Program-made: the position numbers and the translations under genes | Notes under the pieces: generated by a model | Databases searched by the model: none | What the model was told of the DNA's origin: nothing | The model's input: the letters and a program-made list of their open reading frames with translations, nothing else | Virus record (IMG/VR): IMGVR_UViG_3300005340_000038 | Location: 12,362-76,361 of that record | DNA: 64,000 nucleotides | From: a virus | Reading direction: 5' to 3' (one strand) | Part shown: in pieces, positions 3,239-63,052 of the stretch | Layout: every line of letters starts with the position of its first letter | Position numbering within the stretch: the stretch's first letter is position 1

Positions 3239-5674
3239 CTACTTCCCTGTCCCTGGACTGCTTGACATACCACCTGATGCCTTACTCACTAGCACCGTTG
3301 ACGTGTTGCTATATACATATTCACCACCGCTTGTGCGGCCTCTTGCCTGCCACCGGTGTGGGCCATTCGATACAAACTCGGTATTCCATTCGATTGCATA
3401 CGGCGGGTCGATATCCTCATCACCGTAATCCGCATCATCCATCAGAAATGTCACTCCGACAATATCGCCGGTAGCTGTGACCGTGATAGGTATATCCTCA
3501 ACATCATTAAACATCGCACCGTCATGAGGGGCATCGAGTGCAACCGATGGCTGCGAAACTACAACTGGCATCGCTGAGACTTCAGACGAGTTCGTACTCT
3601 CAGCACCGTTATCAGATGATATAACATAATAGTATGTTATATCATTTGATACATCATAATCATTATATAATGTCCCGCCAACTCTAGCAATCTCAGTGTA
3701 TGGGCCGCCCTGGATCGTGCCCCGCTTGACATGATAACTCGTCGAGTCGCCTACTTCTGACCATCCAATCGTAATCACGCCGCCACTTGCCGATGCGGTG
3801 ACGGTTTGAGGTGCTACGGGCAGGTTCGACTGGATCTCTGGCATCGCGCTAACTTGAGAAGAAACAACACTTTCTGCGCCATTGCGTACAGTGATGATGA
3901 CGTAGTAATAGGTCGTGCCGTTGGTGACAGAGCTATTGGTATACTGGTTGATCGAGGGCTGTGCAATCTCGGTGTAAGGGCCACCCGAGACGGTACCGCG
4001 CTTGACACGGTAAAATGTTGCGCCTGCGACGCTGTCCCACGACAGAGCGACCTGGCCGTTACCTGCCATAGCGACAACATTACTAGGAGCGGGAGGTATC
4101 GTCGGCGGGTCACAGGTCGTCGTCACGCTAGTTCCATAGGTCGAGCCGATGCGATCCGTACTACATGCGCTGAGATGAAGCGCGCCTATCGTCGTGCCGT
4201 CGGTAGCCAGAATGCGGGCATTAGAGAGCGTGTCAGGCGTGAGGTCACCACCTGAGTAGAAACGCGGTCGCCAATCCTCATTGAGTGACCCCGCATCACA
4301 GTTGCACAGAGCGCGCCAGGCATCGAGCGTAGAAAAGTCGGCATCGCTCGCTTGCCCCGATTTGTTCCACGCGCCCACGCGATTGGTTGGCGTGACAGAC
4401 GGGCCGACCCAGTAGATGTTACGGTCTACGCCTGTCGCATCGCCAAATGTACTGCGCGTGTGCACCGCGCCATTGCCGTTGTTGACGCTATTGCCGACCA
4501 TGCAGAGGTTGTACTGAGCGGTGAGCGGCGTGCCCTGGTGGAGTAGCATGCATGTGGCGACATCAACGATGGTGTTATGTGTAAAGCTACCGGCGTTGCC
4601 TGATGTCTCAAGGCGATAACCAAGCGGCCAGCCATTGATGACGTTGTAGCGGTAGGTGTTGCCATAGGCGCGAGAGCCGTTATAGATGGCGGCACGGTCT
4701 ATTTCGTCGGAGTTACCGAGCACAGTGAATTCATAGCCGACTGCATCGACGATAGGCTTATTGCTGATGTAGTTGTATTCAGCAATATTACTCTCTGCGC
4801 CGTTTTCGATGTAAATACCATGATTTGACATGCCGCTCAGCGTGCCAAGCGCCGAGCAGGTTTGCGCGTCGAGCGACTCGATGGCGTTTTGCCGAATGGT
4901 GATGCCGGTTGACTCGCCTGAGACGTGGATACCTGTCACGGTCGCCTTGCCATCGCTGCCTACCGCACATATGCCGTTCTGAATGCCGTTGTTCTCAATC
5001 GTGCCGTCCTTGATACCCGCAACGCGAATGCCCTCTACGATATAGCCGTAGATCGTATTGTCCTTGATGACGACATTACGAATCCATTTTTCATCAGGGC
5101 AGGTATTCTGCCCGCTATCGCACTGATTCGCGGTGTTATCGATGTTGATGACGCGCGATTTCTCATAGCTCACGGGGCCGCTCGATGTGCCCCAATTTGT
5201 GAACGTGTTGCCCTGAATGGTGATGTTTCGGCTATTGGTCGCAGACGTCGTATTGATCATCGAGAGCGCGAAATGGCTTGTGGTTTTGCCCGTACAAGCG
5301 AATGTCAGCCCCTGGATGGTGACGTTGTTATTGTTCGCGAGATTGATTGACCCCTGAAAATTCCCCAGGTTGCCGTTGCATAGGATGGGCACATGACCCG
5401 GAGACGGTTCAATCACAATGGGATTGCCGTCGCATCCCGATTTCGTGAGAGTCGCTTGCCCGGAATACTCACCCGTCGAGGACATGATACGGATATGGTC
5501 ACCACATCCTAACGTGCTGAGGTTAAATGCGTTTTGGATGCTGCAAAACGGCGAGGATGCAGAGCCGAGGCCGGGGCAGGCGTTGTCTCGGTCCACATAA
5601 ATATCAGAGGCACGCGCCAGTCCGGTGCAGGCTAGCATCACGATACAGAGGGTGATATAGGCATATCGTTGCAT
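3239..5674 (-). CDS. Exported-type right-handed beta-helix protein with two FN3 domains and a C-terminal Ig-like domain
   Basis: N-terminal signal peptide (..LARA-S), DIYVD/SPFCSIQNA start motif, Asn-rich parallel beta-helix, two FN3 repeats (LSWDSV..YRVKRGT..YYYVI), Big-like C-terminus. Confidence 0.75.
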   Translation of the reverse strand: MQRYAYITLCIVMLACTGLARASDIYVDRDNACPGLGSASSPFCSIQNAFNLSTLGCGDHIRIMSSTGEYSGQATLTKSGCDGNPIVIEPSPGHVPILCNGNLGNFQGSINLANNNNVTIQGLTFACTGKTTSHFALSMINTTSATNSRNITIQGNTFTNWGTSSGPVSYEKSRVINIDNTANQCDSGQNTCPDEKWIRNVVIKDNTIYGYIVEGIRVAGIKDGTIENNGIQNGICAVGSDGKATVTGIHVSGESTGITIRQNAIESLDAQTCSALGTLSGMSNHGIYIENGAESNIAEYNYISNKPIVDAVGYEFTVLGNSDEIDRAAIYNGSRAYGNTYRYNVINGWPLGYRLETSGNAGSFTHNTIVDVATCMLLHQGTPLTAQYNLCMVGNSVNNGNGAVHTRSTFGDATGVDRNIYWVGPSVTPTNRVGAWNKSGQASDADFSTLDAWRALCNCDAGSLNEDWRPRFYSGGDLTPDTLSNARILATDGTTIGALHLSACSTDRIGSTYGTSVTTTCDPPTIPPAPSNVVAMAGNGQVALSWDSVAGATFYRVKRGTVSGGPYTEIAQPSINQYTNSSVTNGTTYYYVIITVRNGAESVVSSQVSAMPEIQSNLPVAPQTVTASASGGVITIGWSEVGDSTSYHVKRGTIQGGPYTEIARVGGTLYNDYDVSNDITYYYVISSDNGAESTNSSEVSAMPVVVSQPSVALDAPHDGAMFNDVEDIPITVTATGDIVGVTFLMDDADYGDEDIDPPYAIEWNTEFVSNGPHRWQARGRTSGGEYVYSNTSTVLVSKASGGMSSSPGTGK

Positions 5675-30752: not shown

Positions 30753-31823
30753 CTATGTCACAACCGGGATATCGGATGTCCGCTGTTGCCGTTGCAATCT
30801 CATCTGCTGACACCTCTCGCGCCATTCCATGCAACGAACGCGATGGTCCTCGACGTTTTTGCAGATACTGAACGGCGCGAGCATGTTAGAAGCCAATGGG
30901 GTAGGGCTACCGTCATCGGTGCGTACCTTGGTACTCTTGGCACGGCGCAGATACAGGCATATGTTGAGCATGAGTGGAAGGCCGTACTCGTGGATCGTTT
31001 CAAACACAATCGGGTCAATCCGGCGGGATTCGGCAAATGTGGACTTAGTGCCCAACACATCGCCCCGGGCTTCATCCACAGCAGAGAGAAATTTACGAGC
31101 CATGTTGATTTGCTCTTGGTCGAATGAAGTAGCGAAGGGGTCATAGGCGGGGGCAAGAGGGTGATGAGTTGAAGCCGGGGTTTCTGTCTTGGTAGGGATA
31201 GGTGCAGGCTCGGGGGTGGCGATGGGCTCAGGGTCGATGTCAACCTCTTTCCCATCCTGGCTTACTTCGTCAGAATCTCCAGTATATATATTCTTATTCT
31301 TATTCTTTGTTTTAGTCTTAAAACGCGCGCACGCGCGCGCGGGTACATTATATGCGTCGTCCGAAAATGAGGTGCAATCTTTGCACCCAATCTCGGAATG
31401 AGGTGCAATCTTTGCACCCGATTCTTCGGATGAGGTGCAATCTTTGCACCCTATTTTTTGATCGAGTGCAATCTTTGCACATGATCCATTTTCATCATTA
31501 TGTCGTTCTTCTATGATCTTTTTTGATGATATGAGCTTGCGGGGAGGGGTGCAGGGTAGATGATCTATGGCCAGCCTGTAGCGATTATAGGAACCCTTTT
31601 TCGACTTTCTGACGATCTCGATGGCTTCGTATGGTGGCTTACTGAGTTCGTCGATTATCTTTACGAGATTTCTTTTGCAATATCCTGTCTTAGATGAGAG
31701 TGCGTTGATTCCCTCTTCGCTAAATCCAGCATCGTTTGATGCGTCGGCAATTGCTAGGAGGACTAGCTTATGCCGAGGTTCGACTTTAAGGCGCCAAACT
31801 TGACCTTTTGTACTATCTGACAT
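30753..31823 (-). CDS. Phage replication initiator (N-terminal wHTH, lambda O-like)
   Basis: KLVLLAIADASN..LSSKTGYCKRNLVKIIDEL..NRYRL. Contains internal iterons followed by a KTKTKNKNKN AT-rich tract. Confidence 0.75.
   Translation of the reverse strand: MSDSTKGQVWRLKVEPRHKLVLLAIADASNDAGFSEEGINALSSKTGYCKRNLVKIIDELSKPPYEAIEIVRKSKKGSYNRYRLAIDHLPCTPPRKLISSKKIIEERHNDENGSCAKIALDQKIGCKDCTSSEESGAKIAPHSEIGCKDCTSFSDDAYNVPARACARFKTKTKNKNKNIYTGDSDEVSQDGKEVDIDPEPIATPEPAPIPTKTETPASTHHPLAPAYDPFATSFDQEQINMARKFLSAVDEARGDVLGTKSTFAESRRIDPIVFETIHEYGLPLMLNICLYLRRAKSTKVRTDDGSPTPLASNMLAPFSICKNVEDHRVRCMEWRERCQQMRLQRQQRTSDIPVVT
31371..31481. repeat. Four palindromic iterons GGTGCAATCTTTGCACC; putative replication origin
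   Basis: Copies at 31371, 31402, 31434 and 31465 (the last AGTGCAATCTTTGCACA), spaced 31-32 bp. AT-rich tract at about 31282-31323. Confidence 0.8.
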
Positions 31824-32157
31824 GGCTTGCCCTATCCATGCAAAGTTACAACGTTGTTCACATGGCATACGGGCAAAATCAGCATGGCCATCATGGTATG
31901 CTGAGATACTCGGCCAGTAATAGACTGATGGACTCCTTGTCTCATCATCTTATTCATGCTAAAATCCTCATTAGGATTGTTTGGATTTGACGCAAAGAGG
32001 CTGCGTCATGACAAATTATTGATTTGCCATCTCTTTCGCACCCGCACAGGCTTGGCAGCTTCACTCGCGGGCGCTACCCAATTTTCTCGCTATCCATAGC
32101 AGGGCCGGACGGCCATCCGGCCTTTTGCTATTTCAGGGCACCGGCGCTAGTCATAGG

Positions 32158-35275: not shown

Positions 35276-35941
35276 TTAAGATGAGAGTGTGGCGGCGGGG
35301 TAATCGAACGAGGCAAGGAAGCGGTTTTTATCGGCCCGAAGATACGCTTGCCGTTCACACTCGGCGGTATCTTCTGGGCGAAGCGTGTGGACGTGGGCAG
35401 CGTCCCATTCACCATCCCATTGCGCGAATTTGGGCACCTCCGCGACCCACTCAAAGCCCGATTTGGCGATTGACTTTTTCGCTACCAAATTGGTCCTCCG
35501 GCATGCGGCAAAAATCGAGTAGATACCGAGTTGTGATGCCCAAACGAACATCCCCTGCTGATCTCGCACGCCGAGATGAGATGTGCTGCGAAACTCCGGC
35601 AGGTGATATAGCGCCATCCATGCCGTGGGGCTGCCCTGGTAGGTGGAGAGGTCGTGCAACCAACTCGCTCCGGCAACTTGCCCCCGATAGTAGATCAGGC
35701 AGAAGTGCATCTGGCCTGTCGCTGTTTTGTCTAAAAATGTTTCGAGTGAGCGAGGTAGTGGATCAACGTACTTCCCAATGCAGGCATCATCACGGTGGAA
35801 TCGGCTCCAGAATTGGCTTAACTCCGAGGCCGAAAAGTCAGAAGAAACAAATACTTCCACTTGTGAAGCCATGGACTTTGTGGACTGGATACGCGGGTGC
35901 TGGACCCAAACACCATCGGGTAGGCAAAGAAGGGTTGGCAA
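35276..35941 (-). CDS. GNAT-family N-acetyltransferase
   Basis: LIYYRGQVAGASWL..LYHLPEFRS..GIYSIFAACRRTNLVAKKSIAKSGFE. Confidence 0.7.
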   Translation of the reverse strand: MPTLLCLPDGVWVQHPRIQSTKSMASQVEVFVSSDFSASELSQFWSRFHRDDACIGKYVDPLPRSLETFLDKTATGQMHFCLIYYRGQVAGASWLHDLSTYQGSPTAWMALYHLPEFRSTSHLGVRDQQGMFVWASQLGIYSIFAACRRTNLVAKKSIAKSGFEWVAEVPKFAQWDGEWDAAHVHTLRPEDTAECERQAYLRADKNRFLASFDYPAATLSS

Positions 35942-36233
35942 GCGTTACCTCCTTTCAACGAATTGGCATCTAGAGATAAGGGTATCCCTTAATGATCAAT
36001 TATGTCCATGGATATAGAAATCAATTTAATGGCTATACACATGAATATATCATTGATCATTTAAATGATACGGCCTCTAGAGACTGCTGCCCAAGGATAT
36101 CGTACAACATGAATATCGAGATGACTAGAGCGATGAGGCTATTTTTTAGACATAGCGGGCGGGTGAAATGCCCCTCTAGTTATTTCCCTGAAAAGGGAAT
36201 CTGGGACAATATGACCGAGAATTGGTTAGAAAC

Positions 36234-36407
36234 ATGACATTGTGTCACTCGCAGCGGCAAAGCGGCGAAGTCGCTTGTCTCATCCGCAAGCGCGCCCCAT
36301 CGAAACCTCTGGGGTTCCTCCAACGTCGCGTATCGTACCCCGTGCAACCCGATGCTGCCAGAGGTATCGAGTGCCGCTGCGAGAGATGGATTGGTTTTGA
36401 TGAGTAG
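36234..36407 (+). CDS. Small Cys-containing protein (possible Com-like Zn ribbon)
   Basis: MTLCH..VAC..KPLG..GIECRCERW. Ends just before the first pentamer tract. Confidence 0.35.
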   Translation: MTLCHSQRQSGEVACLIRKRAPSKPLGFLQRRVSYPVQPDAARGIECRCERWIGFDE

Positions 36408-36409
36408 CA

Positions 36410-37018
36410 GGCGCAGAGGAGCTAGGACAGGTGTGGCATCGCCTTGCGTGGACGGGCAAGGCAGGGCATTACAAGGCGAGGCAATTATCATAGTAGTGGC
36501 AGAGCCCGGAATAGATTGGTAACGCGCGAGAAGCCGTGACAAAGCAGGATATATTATCGCTATCTCTATCAATGCGGCATGGCGTGGCCAGGCGATGCGC
36601 AGCGCTGTGAGGCCAGGCGGGGTAAAGCGAGGCAAGGGTAGCTTAGTCGCGGTTGAATAATAAGACCAGGCTAGTCCCGGCTCGGCTAGGATGGGCGCAG
36701 AGAGGCAGGGCGTGGCCGCGCAAGGCGAAGCAAAGATTCATATCATCCGCAATCATATTTGTTAACAAGGCAAGCTATAGTAGGTCTATCAATGGAGCAG
36801 GAGGCATTATAGATAGCTGGGCAATGCATGGACAGGTTAGGCTCGGCACGGAGAGGCTGGGCGCAGCAAGGCACAGCAAGGCGAGGCTAGATAGCACCAT
36901 ATAGCACAGAATATAAATATTAATCATAAGTTATAGATTAAAATTTCAATGTTCATCAGATGAGGCGTGGCATGGGGCGGCACTGCCTGGCAAGGATGCG
37001 CGCAGCACAGCAAGGCAA
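36410..37018 (+). ncRNA. Upstream array of six GGC-NN pentamer tracts (putative guide RNAs)
   Basis: Tracts at 36410-36484, 36498-36547 (degenerate), 36576-36640, 36664-36738, 36815-36889 and 36964-37018, in 5-nt register (e.g. GGCAT GGCGT GGCCA GGCGA TGCGC AGCGC...), with AT-rich linkers. Expression as RNA is inferred. Confidence 0.75.
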
Positions 37019-37035
37019 TCTAATGGAGGCAACCA

Positions 37036-37650
37036 ATGAGTGTATTAAGTGCGTTACGCAAGGGTACTAGTGGATTAATCAAACGTCAGGTCGTCGTCGT
37101 CGGGCAGACAGATATCATGTTTGACCGATATGCGGGTGACAATAATACGGAGTTGCAACCTTGGGACCGAGCCTATTACGCTCCAGACGGAAAGACGTTC
37201 GTGCTCCCTTCACTAAATATCATGAGTTTTTTATCGGGCATGAACACCAGTTCGGCACCCAAGCGACTTTTGGACCCTCGAAAATACAAGAAGATTGCGG
37301 CGGCATGCCTGAGCTACATCCAGATAAGCCCAATGATCATCCCATTTATGAGGGATGGGAAGCCGATTATTCTTGGTACCCCTGATGGCGACAGAGATGA
37401 ACAGAGCGGAGCCTTTATTACCTATGGTGTAGCGCGGCTCGAAAAAGGCATCCCCAATCCGAAGGCTCGTCCTACGCTGCCTGTCCCGTGGTCGCTCATG
37501 TTCAACCTTGATATTTTCCCTAATGACGAAATCCAAGAGCAGCAGATATGCGATCTCTTCGTCAGGGGCGGGCTAGCGCTGGGATTTGGTACTTACCGCG
37601 GGGTGTATGGCAAATTCGTCGTTGAGTCATGGGATGAGCGCATAGATTAA
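37036..37650 (+). CDS. Stand-alone RAMP/Cas7-like protein (Vipr-like), putative RNA-guided effector
   Basis: GGAGG RBS. RQVVVVGQTDIMFD (first strand), FVLPSLNIMSFL (IPgSslKG-like), RPTLPVPWSLMFNLDI, and C-terminal Gly-rich loop GGLALGFGTYRGVYGKFVV. Confidence 0.75.
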   Translation: MSVLSALRKGTSGLIKRQVVVVGQTDIMFDRYAGDNNTELQPWDRAYYAPDGKTFVLPSLNIMSFLSGMNTSSAPKRLLDPRKYKKIAAACLSYIQISPMIIPFMRDGKPIILGTPDGDRDEQSGAFITYGVARLEKGIPNPKARPTLPVPWSLMFNLDIFPNDEIQEQQICDLFVRGGLALGFGTYRGVYGKFVVESWDERID

Positions 37651-37672
37651 CGATTAACAACATAACTAACCT

Positions 37673-38058
37673 GGCGGGGCTAGGCGATGTGCAGCACGGC
37701 TCTGCGGGGCGCTGACGGGCAAGGAAAGGCGAGTGTACTTAAGTCGGATGGATAAGCATAAGCTAGAGCTTGTATAGAAATAAGATAGGTTAATCACGGC
37801 CCGGCAGGGTGGGGCGGGGCAATGCTCTGCACCGCCAGGCCTGGCATGGCTAGGCAAGTCGGGGGTCCATAGAAAAGCCACACATATCTGTTTATTAAGA
37901 TGAGTCAGGGCAAGGCACTGCACTGCGCTGCAAGGCGTTGCAAGGCAGCGCAAGGCAAGGCAAGGGTTATAAGGGTGAAAGTAAGGCGCGAATGACGTAG
38001 CTCTGCATGGATGGGAAGGGAAGTGCACGGCAATGCATTGAGGGGCGAATCAAGGCAA
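37673..38058 (+). ncRNA. Downstream array of four GGC-NN pentamer tracts (putative guide RNAs)
   Basis: Tracts at 37673-37732, 37798-37857, 37904-37968 and 37994-38058, with the same periodicity, strand and GGCAA/GGCGA ends as the upstream tracts. Confidence 0.75.
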
Positions 38059-38178
38059 ATAATCATGCGAACATCATTTAAGCTCAAAACGAGGATGGAT
38101 AAACCCAAATACGAAGAATATCAGCATCAGTTGTGGTCAAATCGTATGAGTCAACTCGGGCATCATGGAGGCAAGGCA

Positions 38179-39240
38179 ATGGCGAAACGTGCATCAACAG
38201 TGGCAATTATGAGCAATGGGCACATGGACGAAGCAGAGGTAGAGGAAATGACACCTATCATCGAGAGCGACATTGACAATGCAGGGCGAGATGGCAACTA
38301 CACGATTAAGTCTAGAGAAGAGGTATGCAGCGTTGATCGATGCCGCCTCTATCTGACCTACAACACCTACGAGCATCAGCGCCCGATTCGTGGGCATCAC
38401 GTCGCGGGGCTCAATGTTGAGATGCGGCAAGGAACGTTCCGGCAGAGCACCGACATCTGCCTCGGAGTCGTGCGCGGCAAGAAAATGCTGATGGATGGGC
38501 AACATCGCCTACTAGCCGCATGCATGTGCGATATCCCTCAGCAATTTACGATCAAAGAATACCATCTTGACTCAATGGCCCAATTTGCCTCGCTCTATGC
38601 GACATTTGACCGGCACCTCATCAGGAGCCATATGGATGCGATGGGCGCATTTGGCGCAGCAGAAGAGGCGGGGGTGACGAAGAGTTTTATCCGCCGAGCT
38701 ATTAGCGCGTTCCCCCTGTTGTCTACAGGTTTTGGACCGCGCATCCAGCATTGGTCTCAACCGATCATGCGAAGCTCCAATATCCGGTACAAGATGCTAC
38801 TAGATTGGAAACGGGAGATTCATTTTTATTCTGATGATTTAACTGGCAGTAAAGATGCCGGATCTGTTAAAGGCAACATGATGCTGCGGCAAGCCGTCAT
38901 GGCGCTAGCTTTTGTAACATACCGATACCAACAGGAAAAAGCGCATGAGTTTTGGAGCGGGATTGCTCGTGATGATGGACTCAAAGTAGGCGACCCGCGC
39001 AAGGTAGCGTTGAATTTTCTTTTTAACAATGATACGCACGCATACTCTCCGTCTATGTATTGCCGTTTCCTTGCCTCGGCCTGGAATTCGTTCTACGCCA
39101 GCAAGGAGCGTAATAATATGCGGTCGGGCAATGCCGGGAACCCGATTCATATTGCCGGGACGCCGCATACAAGCAGGCAAGTCATGGTCTACGTAACGAG
39201 AGGTGGAGACGTTTTGCATGACCCAATTCCGTTTGAATAA
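38179..39240 (+). CDS. ParB/DndB-like DGQHR-domain protein
   Basis: NTYEHQRPI..V..EMRQGTF..LMDGQHRLLA. Start reassigned to ATG 38179 after GGAGG, because the longer ORF overlaps the repeat tract. Confidence 0.75.
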   Translation: MAKRASTVAIMSNGHMDEAEVEEMTPIIESDIDNAGRDGNYTIKSREEVCSVDRCRLYLTYNTYEHQRPIRGHHVAGLNVEMRQGTFRQSTDICLGVVRGKKMLMDGQHRLLAACMCDIPQQFTIKEYHLDSMAQFASLYATFDRHLIRSHMDAMGAFGAAEEAGVTKSFIRRAISAFPLLSTGFGPRIQHWSQPIMRSSNIRYKMLLDWKREIHFYSDDLTGSKDAGSVKGNMMLRQAVMALAFVTYRYQQEKAHEFWSGIARDDGLKVGDPRKVALNFLFNNDTHAYSPSMYCRFLASAWNSFYASKERNNMRSGNAGNPIHIAGTPHTSRQVMVYVTRGGDVLHDPIPFE

Positions 39241-41896: not shown

Positions 41897-42931
41897 ATGG
41901 CTCAGGTCCTTATGATTACGAACGATGAGCAGGAATCGCAGCATGCATTGTCCATAGGCCCCGTAATCAGCCAGAATCCCAGGATGCGAGCCATCTATGA
42001 TATGGTGTCTCGCGTGGCGCAGACGAACGCTACCGTGCTCATTACGGGCGAGACGGGCACGGGCAAAGAACTGATCGCCAACTCGCTGCACGCGCAAAGC
42101 CCCAGGCGCAAGGGACCATTTGTCGCTGTCAACTGCGCCGCATTGCCCAACGATCTCATCGAGAGCGAGCTATTCGGGCACGAGCGGGGCACATTCACAG
42201 GCGCATATCAACGCCACATCGGCAAATTTGAGCAGGCGGATGGCGGGACGCTATTCCTTGATGAGATTGGTAGCCTGCCCGTTCATCAGCAAGCCAAACT
42301 CCTGCGCGTCATCCAATCACGTCTCGTAGACCGCATCGGCAGCATCAGACCCACGCCCGTAGATATCCGCATCGTTGCCGCTACAAATGAACCCATCTCG
42401 GCACTCGTGCAGAAAAAGCTATTCAGGGAAGACCTATACTACCGGCTCAATGTCGTCTCGGTCGATCTGCCACCCCTAAGAGAACGCAGGGGCGATATCC
42501 CCCTACTCGCTAATTACTTTTTGGCGAACCTATCCGCTACAGTCGGCAGGCACCTGGAACTGACGGATGAGGCAATGGCATGCCTCGTACAATATGAGTG
42601 GCCTGGCAATGTCAGGGAGTTAGAGAACCTGATAGATCGGCTGATCGTGGTCATTCACCGTAAGCTGAAGAAAATAGGGATTTGCCACCTACGTAAAATA
42701 AACTTCAATGTACATAATGTCAAAGACGAATCTTCGCGTGACGTAGGATCATTGTTCGATATTAGTGATATCAATGAGGCAAAAAACGCATTCGAGGAAC
42801 GATTTATAATAAATGCCTTGAAGCGTAATAATTGGAATCACACAAAGACAGCTAAGGACATTTGTATACATCGCAACACACTCATTATGAAGATTGAAAA
42901 ATTCAACATAAGGGGCGCTAGCGATGAATGA
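41897..42931 (+). CDS. Sigma54-dependent enhancer-binding activator (AAA+ plus Fis HTH) without a receiver domain
   Basis: VLITGETGTGKE, ESELFGHERGTFTGA, GGTLFLDEIG, FREDLYYRLNV, WPGNVRELEN, C-terminal HTH. Confidence 0.93.
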   Translation: MAQVLMITNDEQESQHALSIGPVISQNPRMRAIYDMVSRVAQTNATVLITGETGTGKELIANSLHAQSPRRKGPFVAVNCAALPNDLIESELFGHERGTFTGAYQRHIGKFEQADGGTLFLDEIGSLPVHQQAKLLRVIQSRLVDRIGSIRPTPVDIRIVAATNEPISALVQKKLFREDLYYRLNVVSVDLPPLRERRGDIPLLANYFLANLSATVGRHLELTDEAMACLVQYEWPGNVRELENLIDRLIVVIHRKLKKIGICHLRKINFNVHNVKDESSRDVGSLFDISDINEAKNAFEERFIINALKRNNWNHTKTAKDICIHRNTLIMKIEKFNIRGASDE

Positions 42932-62398: not shown

Positions 62399-62413
62399 GA
62401 TATGGAGGCAACT

Positions 62414-63052
62414 ATGAGCGATACCAAAGTTATGTTTCAGATTAAATCCATCTTCGGCGAACTACTTTTCGAGTATGAGTGCAGTAGTCAGAAAGAATGC
62501 GTAGGGCAAGCTGTAAAGTCTGGGGCTAACCTGTATAGGGCTAACCTGTCTGGGGCTGACCTGTATAGGGCTGACCTGTCTGGGGCTGACCTGTCTGGGG
62601 CTAACCTGTCTGGGGCTGACCTGTCTGGGGCTGACCTGTATAGGGCTGACCTGTCTGGGGCTAACCTGTATAGGGCTAACCTGTCTGGGGCTGACCTGTC
62701 TGGGGCTGACCTGTCTGGGGCTGACCTGTCTGGGGCTGACCTGTCTGGGGCTGGGCTCCCAGATGGCGACCTCCAGGTGTGGGGTAAGAAAAATGGCGTT
62801 TTAGTACGGCTACGCATCCCATACAGGGCAAAGCGCAATAGTTGTCTGATCAACAAAAAATGCCGCGCAGAATTTGCATTTTGCGAATGGACTGAGACAG
62901 GTGGGGATGTCGTAGTCGAAAATGAATACGGCAAGACTATTTATTCGCCTGGAAATTGGGTATATCCGCATGCGTATGATGATGATATTCGTATCGATTG
63001 TGCGCCAGGGATACACTTTTTTCTGACAAGAGCAGAAGCAGAGGCTTGGTAA
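62414..63052 (+). CDS. Pentapeptide-repeat protein with DUF5758-like C-terminal domain
   Basis: About 16 A(D/N)L(S/Y)(G/R) repeats; [19 protein letters not shown]. Confidence 0.9.

What the first reader, a model, noticed from the sequence alone, without database searches (positions are those of the whole stretch)
37036..37650. Minimal stand-alone RAMP-fold protein outside any cas operon
SEEN: 204 aa with motifs in RAMP order: an N-terminal strand plus G.T.I(M)F, LPSLNIMSFL (equivalent to IPGSSLKG), a possible thumb hairpin (ARLEKGIPNPKARP), WSLMFNLDI, and a terminal Gly-rich loop GGLALGFGTYRGVYGKFVV. No nuclease domain is evident. INFERRED: a single-subunit filament effector that acts by binding or silencing rather than cutting. 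It could bear on the ancestry of class 1 CRISPR backbones and be a very compact programmable tool.
Basis: partly seen in the sequence, partly recalled or inferred. Interest (0 to 1): 0.8.

Follow-up and report, generated by a model that had tools for sequence, protein, structure and literature searches.

The report
Phage VIPR system: Vipr plus guide RNAs
This 204-aa gene encodes a Vipr protein, the Cas7-like subunit of the recently described phage VIPR RNA-guided DNA-silencing systems.

Summary

Nine period-5 tracts of (G)GC-NN units flank the gene on the same strand, five upstream and four downstream. They occur nowhere else in the 76-kb phage genome. All 80 related IMG/VR loci examined carry the same kind of tract within about 150 nt of their vipr gene.

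This matches the VIPR systems described in three 2026 preprints: Vipr forms a filament on a GGY/NN vrRNA and silences DNA targets read with a one-base skip. The locus is therefore a new member of a known kind.

- **Differences from SUSP1:** no conserved accessory (vap) gene, C rather than T at the Y position, and a short GGCRA-GGCRA 3' end instead of a pseudoknot tail.
- **Not found:** no natural target in any collection, and no self-target.
- **Not shown:** function at this locus is inferred by homology.

The parts
37036..37650 (+). vipr gene: 204-aa Vipr protein with a single RAMP/Cas7-like domain (RRM core, thumb hairpin 127-148, G-loop 182-193)
36410..36484 (+). vrRNA tract T1: 15 pentamer units (G)G(C)-NN, the most degenerate of the upstream tracts
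36576..36640 (+). vrRNA tract T2: 12 units plus a terminal GGGTA
36669..36733 (+). vrRNA tract T3: 13 units
36820..36889 (+). vrRNA tract T4: 14 units
   Evidence: A 191-nt metatranscriptome contig covers 36826-37016 (weak).
36964..37018 (+). vrRNA tract T5: 11 units; it ends 17 nt before the vipr start codon
37673..37732 (+). vrRNA tract T6: 12 units; it begins 22 nt after the vipr stop codon
   Evidence: A metatranscriptome contig covers 37572-37784 (weak).
37788..37857 (+). vrRNA tract T7: 14 units
37909..37968 (+). vrRNA tract T8: 11 units plus a terminal GGGTT
37999..38058 (+). vrRNA tract T9: 12 units. It is the weakest tract, below the scanner's threshold and visible only in register.
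   Evidence: Homologues of the next ORF start about 100 residues later, so this stretch is probably intergenic.
38011..39240 (+). Downstream same-strand ORF with a ParB/Srx-like N-terminal domain and a helical C-terminal part. The true start is probably near 38179. It is a possible but unproven accessory gene.
   Evidence: Conserved QRP...GTF...DGQHRL motifs. Best Foldseek hits are KorB/ParB/Noc, only E 4.5e-3, and the model has pLDDT 70. It is not found next to vipr in 81 related loci.
36248..36383 (+). Structured stretch closed by a perfect 12-bp long-range stem, just 5' of T1. Whether it belongs to the system is unknown.
   Evidence: MFE -68.9 kcal/mol, z -1.97. No Rfam match.

Best explanation
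This is the core of a phage-encoded VIPR (Viral Interference Programmable Repeat) system. The nine intergenic tracts are most likely transcribed from the + strand into vrRNAs of 11-15 pentamer units.

By homology, one Vipr protomer binds each unit. The thumb arginine (R145) and the G-loop aromatic and arginine (Y187, R188) would hold the flipped-out (G)GC bases. The protomers would stack head to tail into a helical filament that displays the variable NN dinucleotides.

The filament would then recognise double-stranded DNA whose sequence reads NN-x-NN-x (one base skipped per unit) and block transcription of the bound gene. The probable target is a competing phage, satellite or prophage in the same unknown soil or rhizosphere host.

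- **Shown here:** the fold, the homology to a solved Vipr, the tract anatomy, and the strict co-occurrence of gene and tracts in relatives.
- **Inferred from the published SUSP1 and P. fulva work:** RNA loading, filament formation, the one-base skip rule, silencing rather than cleavage, and the biological role.

For: 2. **Homology.** The 89-sequence family profile hits only SUSP1 Vipr in the PDB, E 4.1e-10. hhalign gives 97.2%, E 4.4e-11, over the thumb tip through the last strand. The functionally tested SUSP1 residue R138 aligns with invariant R145. SUSP1 R179 aligns with invariant R188 and W178 with Y187 (residues from 10.64898/2026.04.26.720927).

3. **Tracts.** There are nine, all on the + strand, and none elsewhere in the 76-kb genome on either strand. 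Shuffled genomes gave one tract in 20 trials. Over 114 units G1 is 67%, G2 96% and C3 81% (87% pyrimidine), while N4 and N5 carry only 0.19 and 0.14 bits. The same scanner recovers exactly the four published SUSP1 vrRNAs.

4. **Co-occurrence.** All 80 related IMG/VR loci have a same-strand tract within about 150 nt of vipr: 57 upstream, 56 downstream, 33 both. Burkholderia phage vB_E436 has one too.

5. **Context.** The window is an IMG/VR virus record with no cas genes or CRISPR array. The nearest ESM Atlas clusters are all viral.

6. **No self-target** under skip 0, 1 or 2, as the authors report for their own systems (paper section read).

7. **Self-association.** The three-copy model scored ipSAE 0.53 against 0.00 for the best of 3 controls. 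That mark was reached by 20 of 30 proteins solved as pairs of one chain and by 1 of 23 solved as single chains. The runs agree in at least 94% of contacts, and the partner pLDDT is at least 84. The interface is head to tail: helix 168-182 plus the G-loop side of one copy touches residues 2-8, 60-63, 89-96 and 161-165 of the next. Csm3 and Vipr filaments are already solved, so this pass may only reflect likeness to them.
Against: - **No target.** No natural target was found, so the biological role is unconfirmed.
- **Partial sequence homology.** The match to SUSP1 Vipr covers only the C-terminal 60-115 residues. The N-terminal contacts (SUSP1 H17, K33, E71/M72) could not be aligned.
- **One contact differs.** SUSP1 D177, whose alanine substitution abolished silencing, corresponds to T186 here.
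- **No SUSP1-like tail.** The sequences after the tracts share no motif and do not fold better than shuffles, z -1.5 to +1.3.
- **No conserved vap gene**.
- **No promoter call.** The sigma-70 consensus scan called no + strand promoter.
- **Weak RNA evidence.** It consists only of short metatranscriptome contigs that could derive from DNA in the libraries.
Confidence: 0.88

Rival explanations
1. It is a VIPR system that destroys its targets rather than silencing them. Vipr-vrRNA would recruit a nuclease or a DNA-clamping partner, for example the ParB/Srx-like protein encoded just downstream, as proposed for VIPR types III-V.
For: A same-strand ParB/Srx-like ORF follows the last tract. The paper says all vap genes appear to act on DNA and that some types carry nucleases.
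Against: The ORF is not conserved beside vipr in any of 81 related loci. Its fold matches are weak (E 4.5e-3) and no nuclease motif was identified. ParB-like genes are common in phages for other reasons (my knowledge).
Confidence: 0.08
2. The protein is an orphan Cas7/Csm3-like subunit that interferes with or borrows a host CRISPR system, for instance as a decoy that soaks up host crRNA. On this reading the GGC-NN tracts are unrelated DNA repeats.
For: The best solved structural matches are type III Csm3 subunits.
Against: It gets no Pfam RAMPs hit. The profile hits Vipr and no Cas protein in the PDB by sequence. The tracts accompany the gene on the same strand in 80 of 80 relatives, which an unrelated repeat would not do.
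Confidence: 0.02
3. The tracts act as DNA, as iterons, protein-binding arrays or non-B-DNA elements at a divergent control region. The 204-aa protein would be a regulator that binds them.
For: The locus lies at the switch between leftward replication genes and rightward genes. No + strand promoter was called.
Against: Strict strand bias, random NN beside fixed GGC, and a period of 5 match the experimentally sequenced vrRNAs of SUSP1. The phage has separate iteron-like 31-nt repeats in its initiator gene. The protein has an RNA-binding RAMP fold.
Confidence: 0.02

Closest known systems
VIPR system of Escherichia phage SUSP1 (type II; Vipr structure PDB 36pp; bioRxiv 10.64898/2026.04.26.720920, 10.64898/2026.04.26.720927, 10.64898/2026.10.15.759431)
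   Same: - A single small RAMP protein of about 200 aa in a phage.
- The thumb Arg and the G-loop Trp/Tyr-Arg-x-x-x-Gly are conserved.
- Period-5 GGY-NN tracts of 11-15 units lie on the same strand, both upstream and downstream of the gene.
- G2 is nearly invariant and G1 is looser in both: 67% here, 78% in SUSP1 by the same caller.
- Neither system targets itself.
   Different: - Sequence similarity is confined to the C-terminal part, and the N-terminal half does not align.
- Y3 is C here (81%) and T in SUSP1 (84%).
- SUSP1 D177 corresponds to T186 here.
- There are nine tracts rather than four.
- There is no vap1 homologue and no conserved partner gene at all.
- No conserved hairpin or pseudoknot tail is present. 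Instead most tracts end in two units with NN = GA/AA (GGCRA-GGCRA, sometimes followed by GGG), a feature shared by the 80 relatives.
Csm3/Cmr4/Cas7 backbone subunits of type III and type VII CRISPR-Cas effectors
   Different: Identity is 9-12% and there is no Pfam RAMPs hit. The genome has no CRISPR array, Cas10, Cas1 or other cas gene. The guide is a pentamer-repeat RNA rather than a spacer with a repeat handle. The published target is dsDNA read with gaps, not contiguous RNA.
Vipr homologue of Burkholderia phage vB_E436 (PQ789831.1, XRX04321.1, annotated as a hypothetical protein)
   Same: 52% identity over the full length. A same-strand GGC-NN tract lies immediately upstream and ends in GGCGA-GGCGA-GGG.
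   Different: Only one tract was detected. The neighbouring genes are unrelated.

Membership tests
VIPR system (Vipr + vrRNA) | Vipr protein with a RAMP fold: RRM core, thumb, glycine-rich loop | tested here: met
VIPR system (Vipr + vrRNA) | Sequence homology to an experimentally characterised Vipr | tested here: met
   The family profile against the PDB hits only SUSP1 Vipr, E 4.1e-10. hhalign 97.2%. The single sequence gives only E 1.4. The match covers the C-terminal part only.
VIPR system (Vipr + vrRNA) | Residues that hold the GGY bases (SUSP1 H17, R138, D177, W178, R179) | tested here: inconclusive
   R138 aligns with R145 and R179 with R188, both invariant. W178 aligns with Y187. D177 aligns with T186, so it is not conserved. 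H17 could not be aligned.
VIPR system (Vipr + vrRNA) | At least 4 tandem YNNGG/GGYNN units in the intergenic DNA flanking vipr, on its strand | tested here: met
   Nine tracts of 11-15 units, found only here in 76 kb. Shuffled genomes gave one tract in 20 trials.
VIPR system (Vipr + vrRNA) | Conserved GGY scaffold with hypervariable NN | tested here: met
   Information per position is 0.61, 1.75, 1.07, 0.19 and 0.14 bits. The clade of 80 loci gives 1.31, 1.65, 1.07, 0.10 and 0.04 bits (the caller biases positions 1-3).
VIPR system (Vipr + vrRNA) | Invariable structured 3' tail after the repeat tract (described for type II) | tested here: not met
   No shared sequence or stable fold follows the tracts. 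Only a short GGCRA-GGCRA(-GGG) end is conserved. The paper describes the tail and its pseudoknot for the SUSP1 clade and says array architecture varies between types, so this argues against type II rather than against VIPR.
VIPR system (Vipr + vrRNA) | Accessory vap gene next to vipr (typical, not universal; the authors also report stand-alone genes) | tested here: not met
   Only vipr is shared among 82 loci, and the next commonest neighbour family occurs in 9. The ParB-like ORF is unique to this phage.
VIPR system (Vipr + vrRNA) | Viral or proviral context without a CRISPR array or cas genes | tested here: met
VIPR system (Vipr + vrRNA) | vrRNAs are expressed and co-purify with Vipr | not testable with these tools
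   The only data are short contigs from three metatranscriptome runs over 36826-37016, 37572-37784 and 38387-38580. They could derive from DNA in the libraries.
VIPR system (Vipr + vrRNA) | Natural targets that match the NN-x (one-base skip) code | tested here: inconclusive
   Exact-pattern scans of three collections gave only chance-level hits. The tools allowed no mismatches.
VIPR type (I-VII) | Position on the authors' Vipr tree, vap family and array architecture | not testable with these tools
   The tree and the type table (fig. S16, data S4) are not held as text. The lack of a tail or vap1 and the weak similarity to SUSP1 argue against type II.
CRISPR-Cas class 1 effector (Cas7/Csm3) | RAMP subunit encoded with other cas genes and a CRISPR array | tested here: not met
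   No array. No Cas1 or Pfam RAMPs match in the genome. No PADLOC hit.

The most novel reading that the evidence does not exclude
This locus and its 170-odd IMG/VR relatives may form a distinct minimal VIPR lineage. It would consist of vipr plus vrRNAs only, with no accessory gene. The vrRNAs would end in a short conserved GGCRA-GGCRA(-GGG) handle rather than a structured tail. That would imply a different way of defining vrRNA 3' ends and capping the filament than in the solved SUSP1 system. If the published seven-type scheme does not already cover this lineage, it would be a new subtype.
Probability: 0.25. Interest if true: 0.45.

Novelty: new member of a known kind. Interest (0 to 1): 0.3.

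Why it matters
VIPR is a newly described way of RNA-guided DNA recognition and is proposed to be older than CRISPR. This locus adds a well-resolved example from an uncultivated rhizosphere and soil phage, with nine guides.

Together with 80 relatives it shows that a vipr gene and its tracts can travel without any fixed partner gene and without the SUSP1-type RNA tail. That helps define the minimal requirements of the system and is relevant to anyone wanting a compact programmable DNA binder. It does not change the current picture of VIPR.

Tried and rejected
**Target search with the NN-x code**
- Five viral-contig scans found nothing: T4 (11 units), T3 (10), T6 (9), T7 (9) and T5 (9).
- The T2 9-unit seed hit two contigs, L006 and L007. 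About two hits are expected by chance. The hits did not extend into the last three units, and the two proteins are unrelated (an amidoligase-like protein and one of unknown family). Both were in frame with x at the wobble position, but G/A-rich first positions make that likely anyway. I count these as chance.
- The genome-contig scan (T4) and two metagenome-contig scans (T7, T6) found nothing.
- These scans accept exact matches only, so targets with even one mismatch were missed.
- Our guides against all 510 kb of fetched loci, and 2,580 guide windows from relatives against this phage, scored no better than shuffled or reversed guides.

**Other searches that gave nothing useful**
- No self-target under skip 0, 1 or 2.
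- No Rfam family, including hammerhead ribozymes, in 35900-38300.
- No + strand sigma-70 promoter or terminator call.
- Pfam, NCBIfam and PADLOC gave nothing for Vipr. PHROGs gave one weak hit to phrog_4652, of unknown function.
- Genome contigs held no close relative of the protein. The first attempt with the wide alignment failed for lack of a conserved block.
- The host could not be inferred.

**An idea I dropped**
- I considered that the D177-to-T186 change explains the loose G1. Relatives with the same Thr have G1 near 89%, and SUSP1 itself has 78%.

**Metatranscriptome contigs**
- The parts of the stretch without contig cover say nothing about expression.

Full report
The ORF at 37036-37650 (+) encodes 204 aa and has a GGAGG ribosome-binding site 6 nt upstream of its ATG. 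Pfam, NCBIfam and PADLOC give no hit, and PHROGs gives one weak C-terminal hit to a family of unknown function. A search of 1.8 billion representative proteins found 249 relatives at E<=1e-3, mostly 180-220 aa long. In an 89-sequence alignment R145, R188 and G192 are invariant, and the IMFDRY, thumb (VARLxxGIPNPKxRP), PW..F and G-loop (GGxxxGLGTFR) blocks are conserved.

**The fold is RAMP.**

**The family is Vipr.**
By sequence the single protein gives only a marginal PDB hit, to 'SUSP1 Vipr protein' 36pp (E 1.4). The family profile hits that chain alone at E 4.1e-10. hhalign against the SUSP1 gene product, read from NC_028808, gives 97.2% probability.

Three 2026 preprints describe VIPR. One Vipr protomer binds each GGY-NN pentamer of a vrRNA. 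The protomers form a helical filament. The NN bases pair with dsDNA while skipping every third target base, and binding silences transcription. Natural targets are competing satellites and prophages.

The SUSP1 residues that hold the GGY bases map as follows:
- R138 (thumb) aligns with R145, which is invariant.
- R179 aligns with R188, which is invariant.
- W178 aligns with Y187.
- D177 aligns with T186, so this contact is not conserved.
- H17 and K33 lie in the N-terminal part, which sequence methods did not align.

**The guide RNAs.**
A scan for nine-unit GGY-NN windows finds eight tracts, all on the + strand and all between 36420 and 37968. Read in register, a ninth and weaker tract follows at 37999-38058. 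The whole 76-kb phage record has no other tract on either strand, and twenty shuffled genomes gave one in total. Five tracts lie upstream of vipr and four downstream.

Over 114 units G1 is 67%, G2 96% and C3 81% (87% pyrimidine), while N4 and N5 are close to random at 0.19 and 0.14 bits. The same scanner applied to phage SUSP1 returns exactly its four published vrRNAs, one upstream and three downstream of vipr-vap1. This serves as a positive control.

**Relatives.**
IMG/VR holds 174 loci that encode relatives, of which 80 were fetched. All 80 carry a same-strand tract within about 150 nt of vipr: 57 upstream, 56 downstream and 33 on both sides. So does Burkholderia phage vB_E436, the only relative among 50,697 deposited phage genomes. 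Clustering the ORFs of 82 loci shows that vipr is the only shared gene, and the next commonest neighbour family occurs in nine loci. This clade therefore has no fixed accessory gene. The authors note that some Vipr genes stand alone.

**Differences from SUSP1.**
- Y3 is C here and T in SUSP1.
- The sequences after the tracts share no motif and do not fold better than shuffles, whereas SUSP1 tails show their conserved hairpin.
- Most tracts here, and tracts across the 80 relatives, instead end in two units whose NN is GA or AA, sometimes followed by GGG.
- The VIPR type could not be assigned because the authors' tree and type table are not available as text.

**Context.**
The window is an IMG/VR virus record, linear and 82% complete by CheckV. 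Near-identical DNA occurs in rhizosphere and soil metagenomes from many studies. Leftward replication genes (primase-helicase, O-like initiator) end before the locus. Rightward genes follow it: a ParB/Srx-like protein, a Gp3-like protein and a sigma-54 activator. The genome has no Cas1 or Pfam RAMPs match and no CRISPR array.

The ParB-like ORF is modelled only moderately well (pLDDT 70). Its best matches are KorB, ParB and Noc at E 4.5e-3. It could assist VIPR, but nothing ties it to the system.

**Targets.**
No self-target exists under skip 0, 1 or 2. Exact NN-x scans of viral, genomic and metagenomic collections gave nothing beyond two chance-level hits for T2. Cross-checks between this phage and the relatives' guides were at control level. 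The scans could not tolerate mismatches, so this result is inconclusive.

**Oligomer.**
A three-copy model scored ipSAE 0.53 against 0.00 for the best of three controls. That mark was reached by 20 of 30 proteins solved as pairs of one chain and by 1 of 23 solved as single chains. The runs agree in at least 94% of contacts, and the partner pLDDT is at least 84. The copies join head to tail through two different surfaces, as a filament needs. Similar filaments are already solved, so the pass may only reflect likeness to them.

**Expression.**
Three metatranscriptome runs from three studies each hold one short, identical contig over part of the locus. This is a weak hint at best.

**Verdict.**
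However, the system is a member of the VIPR family published in 2026, so it is a new member of a known kind and of modest interest. I reached the same reading independently from the PDB hit.

Noticed in passing
window 31366-31480: A 31-nt unit repeated 3.7 times inside the O-like replication-initiator ORF (30753-31868, minus strand). It looks like iterons, so this is probably the phage replication origin.
   Followed up: no
window 62518-62753: A 15-nt unit repeated 15.7 times at 90% identity inside ORF 62402-63052 (+), which would encode a five-residue protein repeat.
   Followed up: no
window 36248-36383: A perfect 12-bp long-range stem encloses a multi-stem fold just 5' of the first vrRNA tract (MFE -68.9 kcal/mol, z -1.97, no Rfam match). 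It could be a leader of the vrRNA transcript or belong to the upstream gene.
   Followed up: partly
window 41897-42931: A phage-encoded sigma-54 activator with AAA+ and Fis-type HTH domains but no N-terminal receiver or sensor domain (Pfam Sigma54_activat, E 1e-70).
   Followed up: partly
window 38011-39240: An ORF with a ParB/Srx-like N-domain and an invariant DDGLK.GDPRK motif, in a small family of 8 proteins. Homologues begin about 100 residues later, so the listed start is probably too early.
   Followed up: partly
L021 (= L003) 1284-1588 and 2271-2640; L036 3088-3557: Some relatives carry uninterrupted arrays of 60-94 pentamer units, punctuated only by the GGCRA-GGCRA motif. This recalls the 'staggered arrays' mentioned in the VIPR preprint.
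   Followed up: no
L001 (Burkholderia phage vB_E436, PQ789831.1) 3497-4210: A cultured, deposited phage carries a Vipr homologue (52% identity, annotated as hypothetical) with an upstream GGC-NN tract. It would be a convenient laboratory model for this clade.
   Followed up: partly
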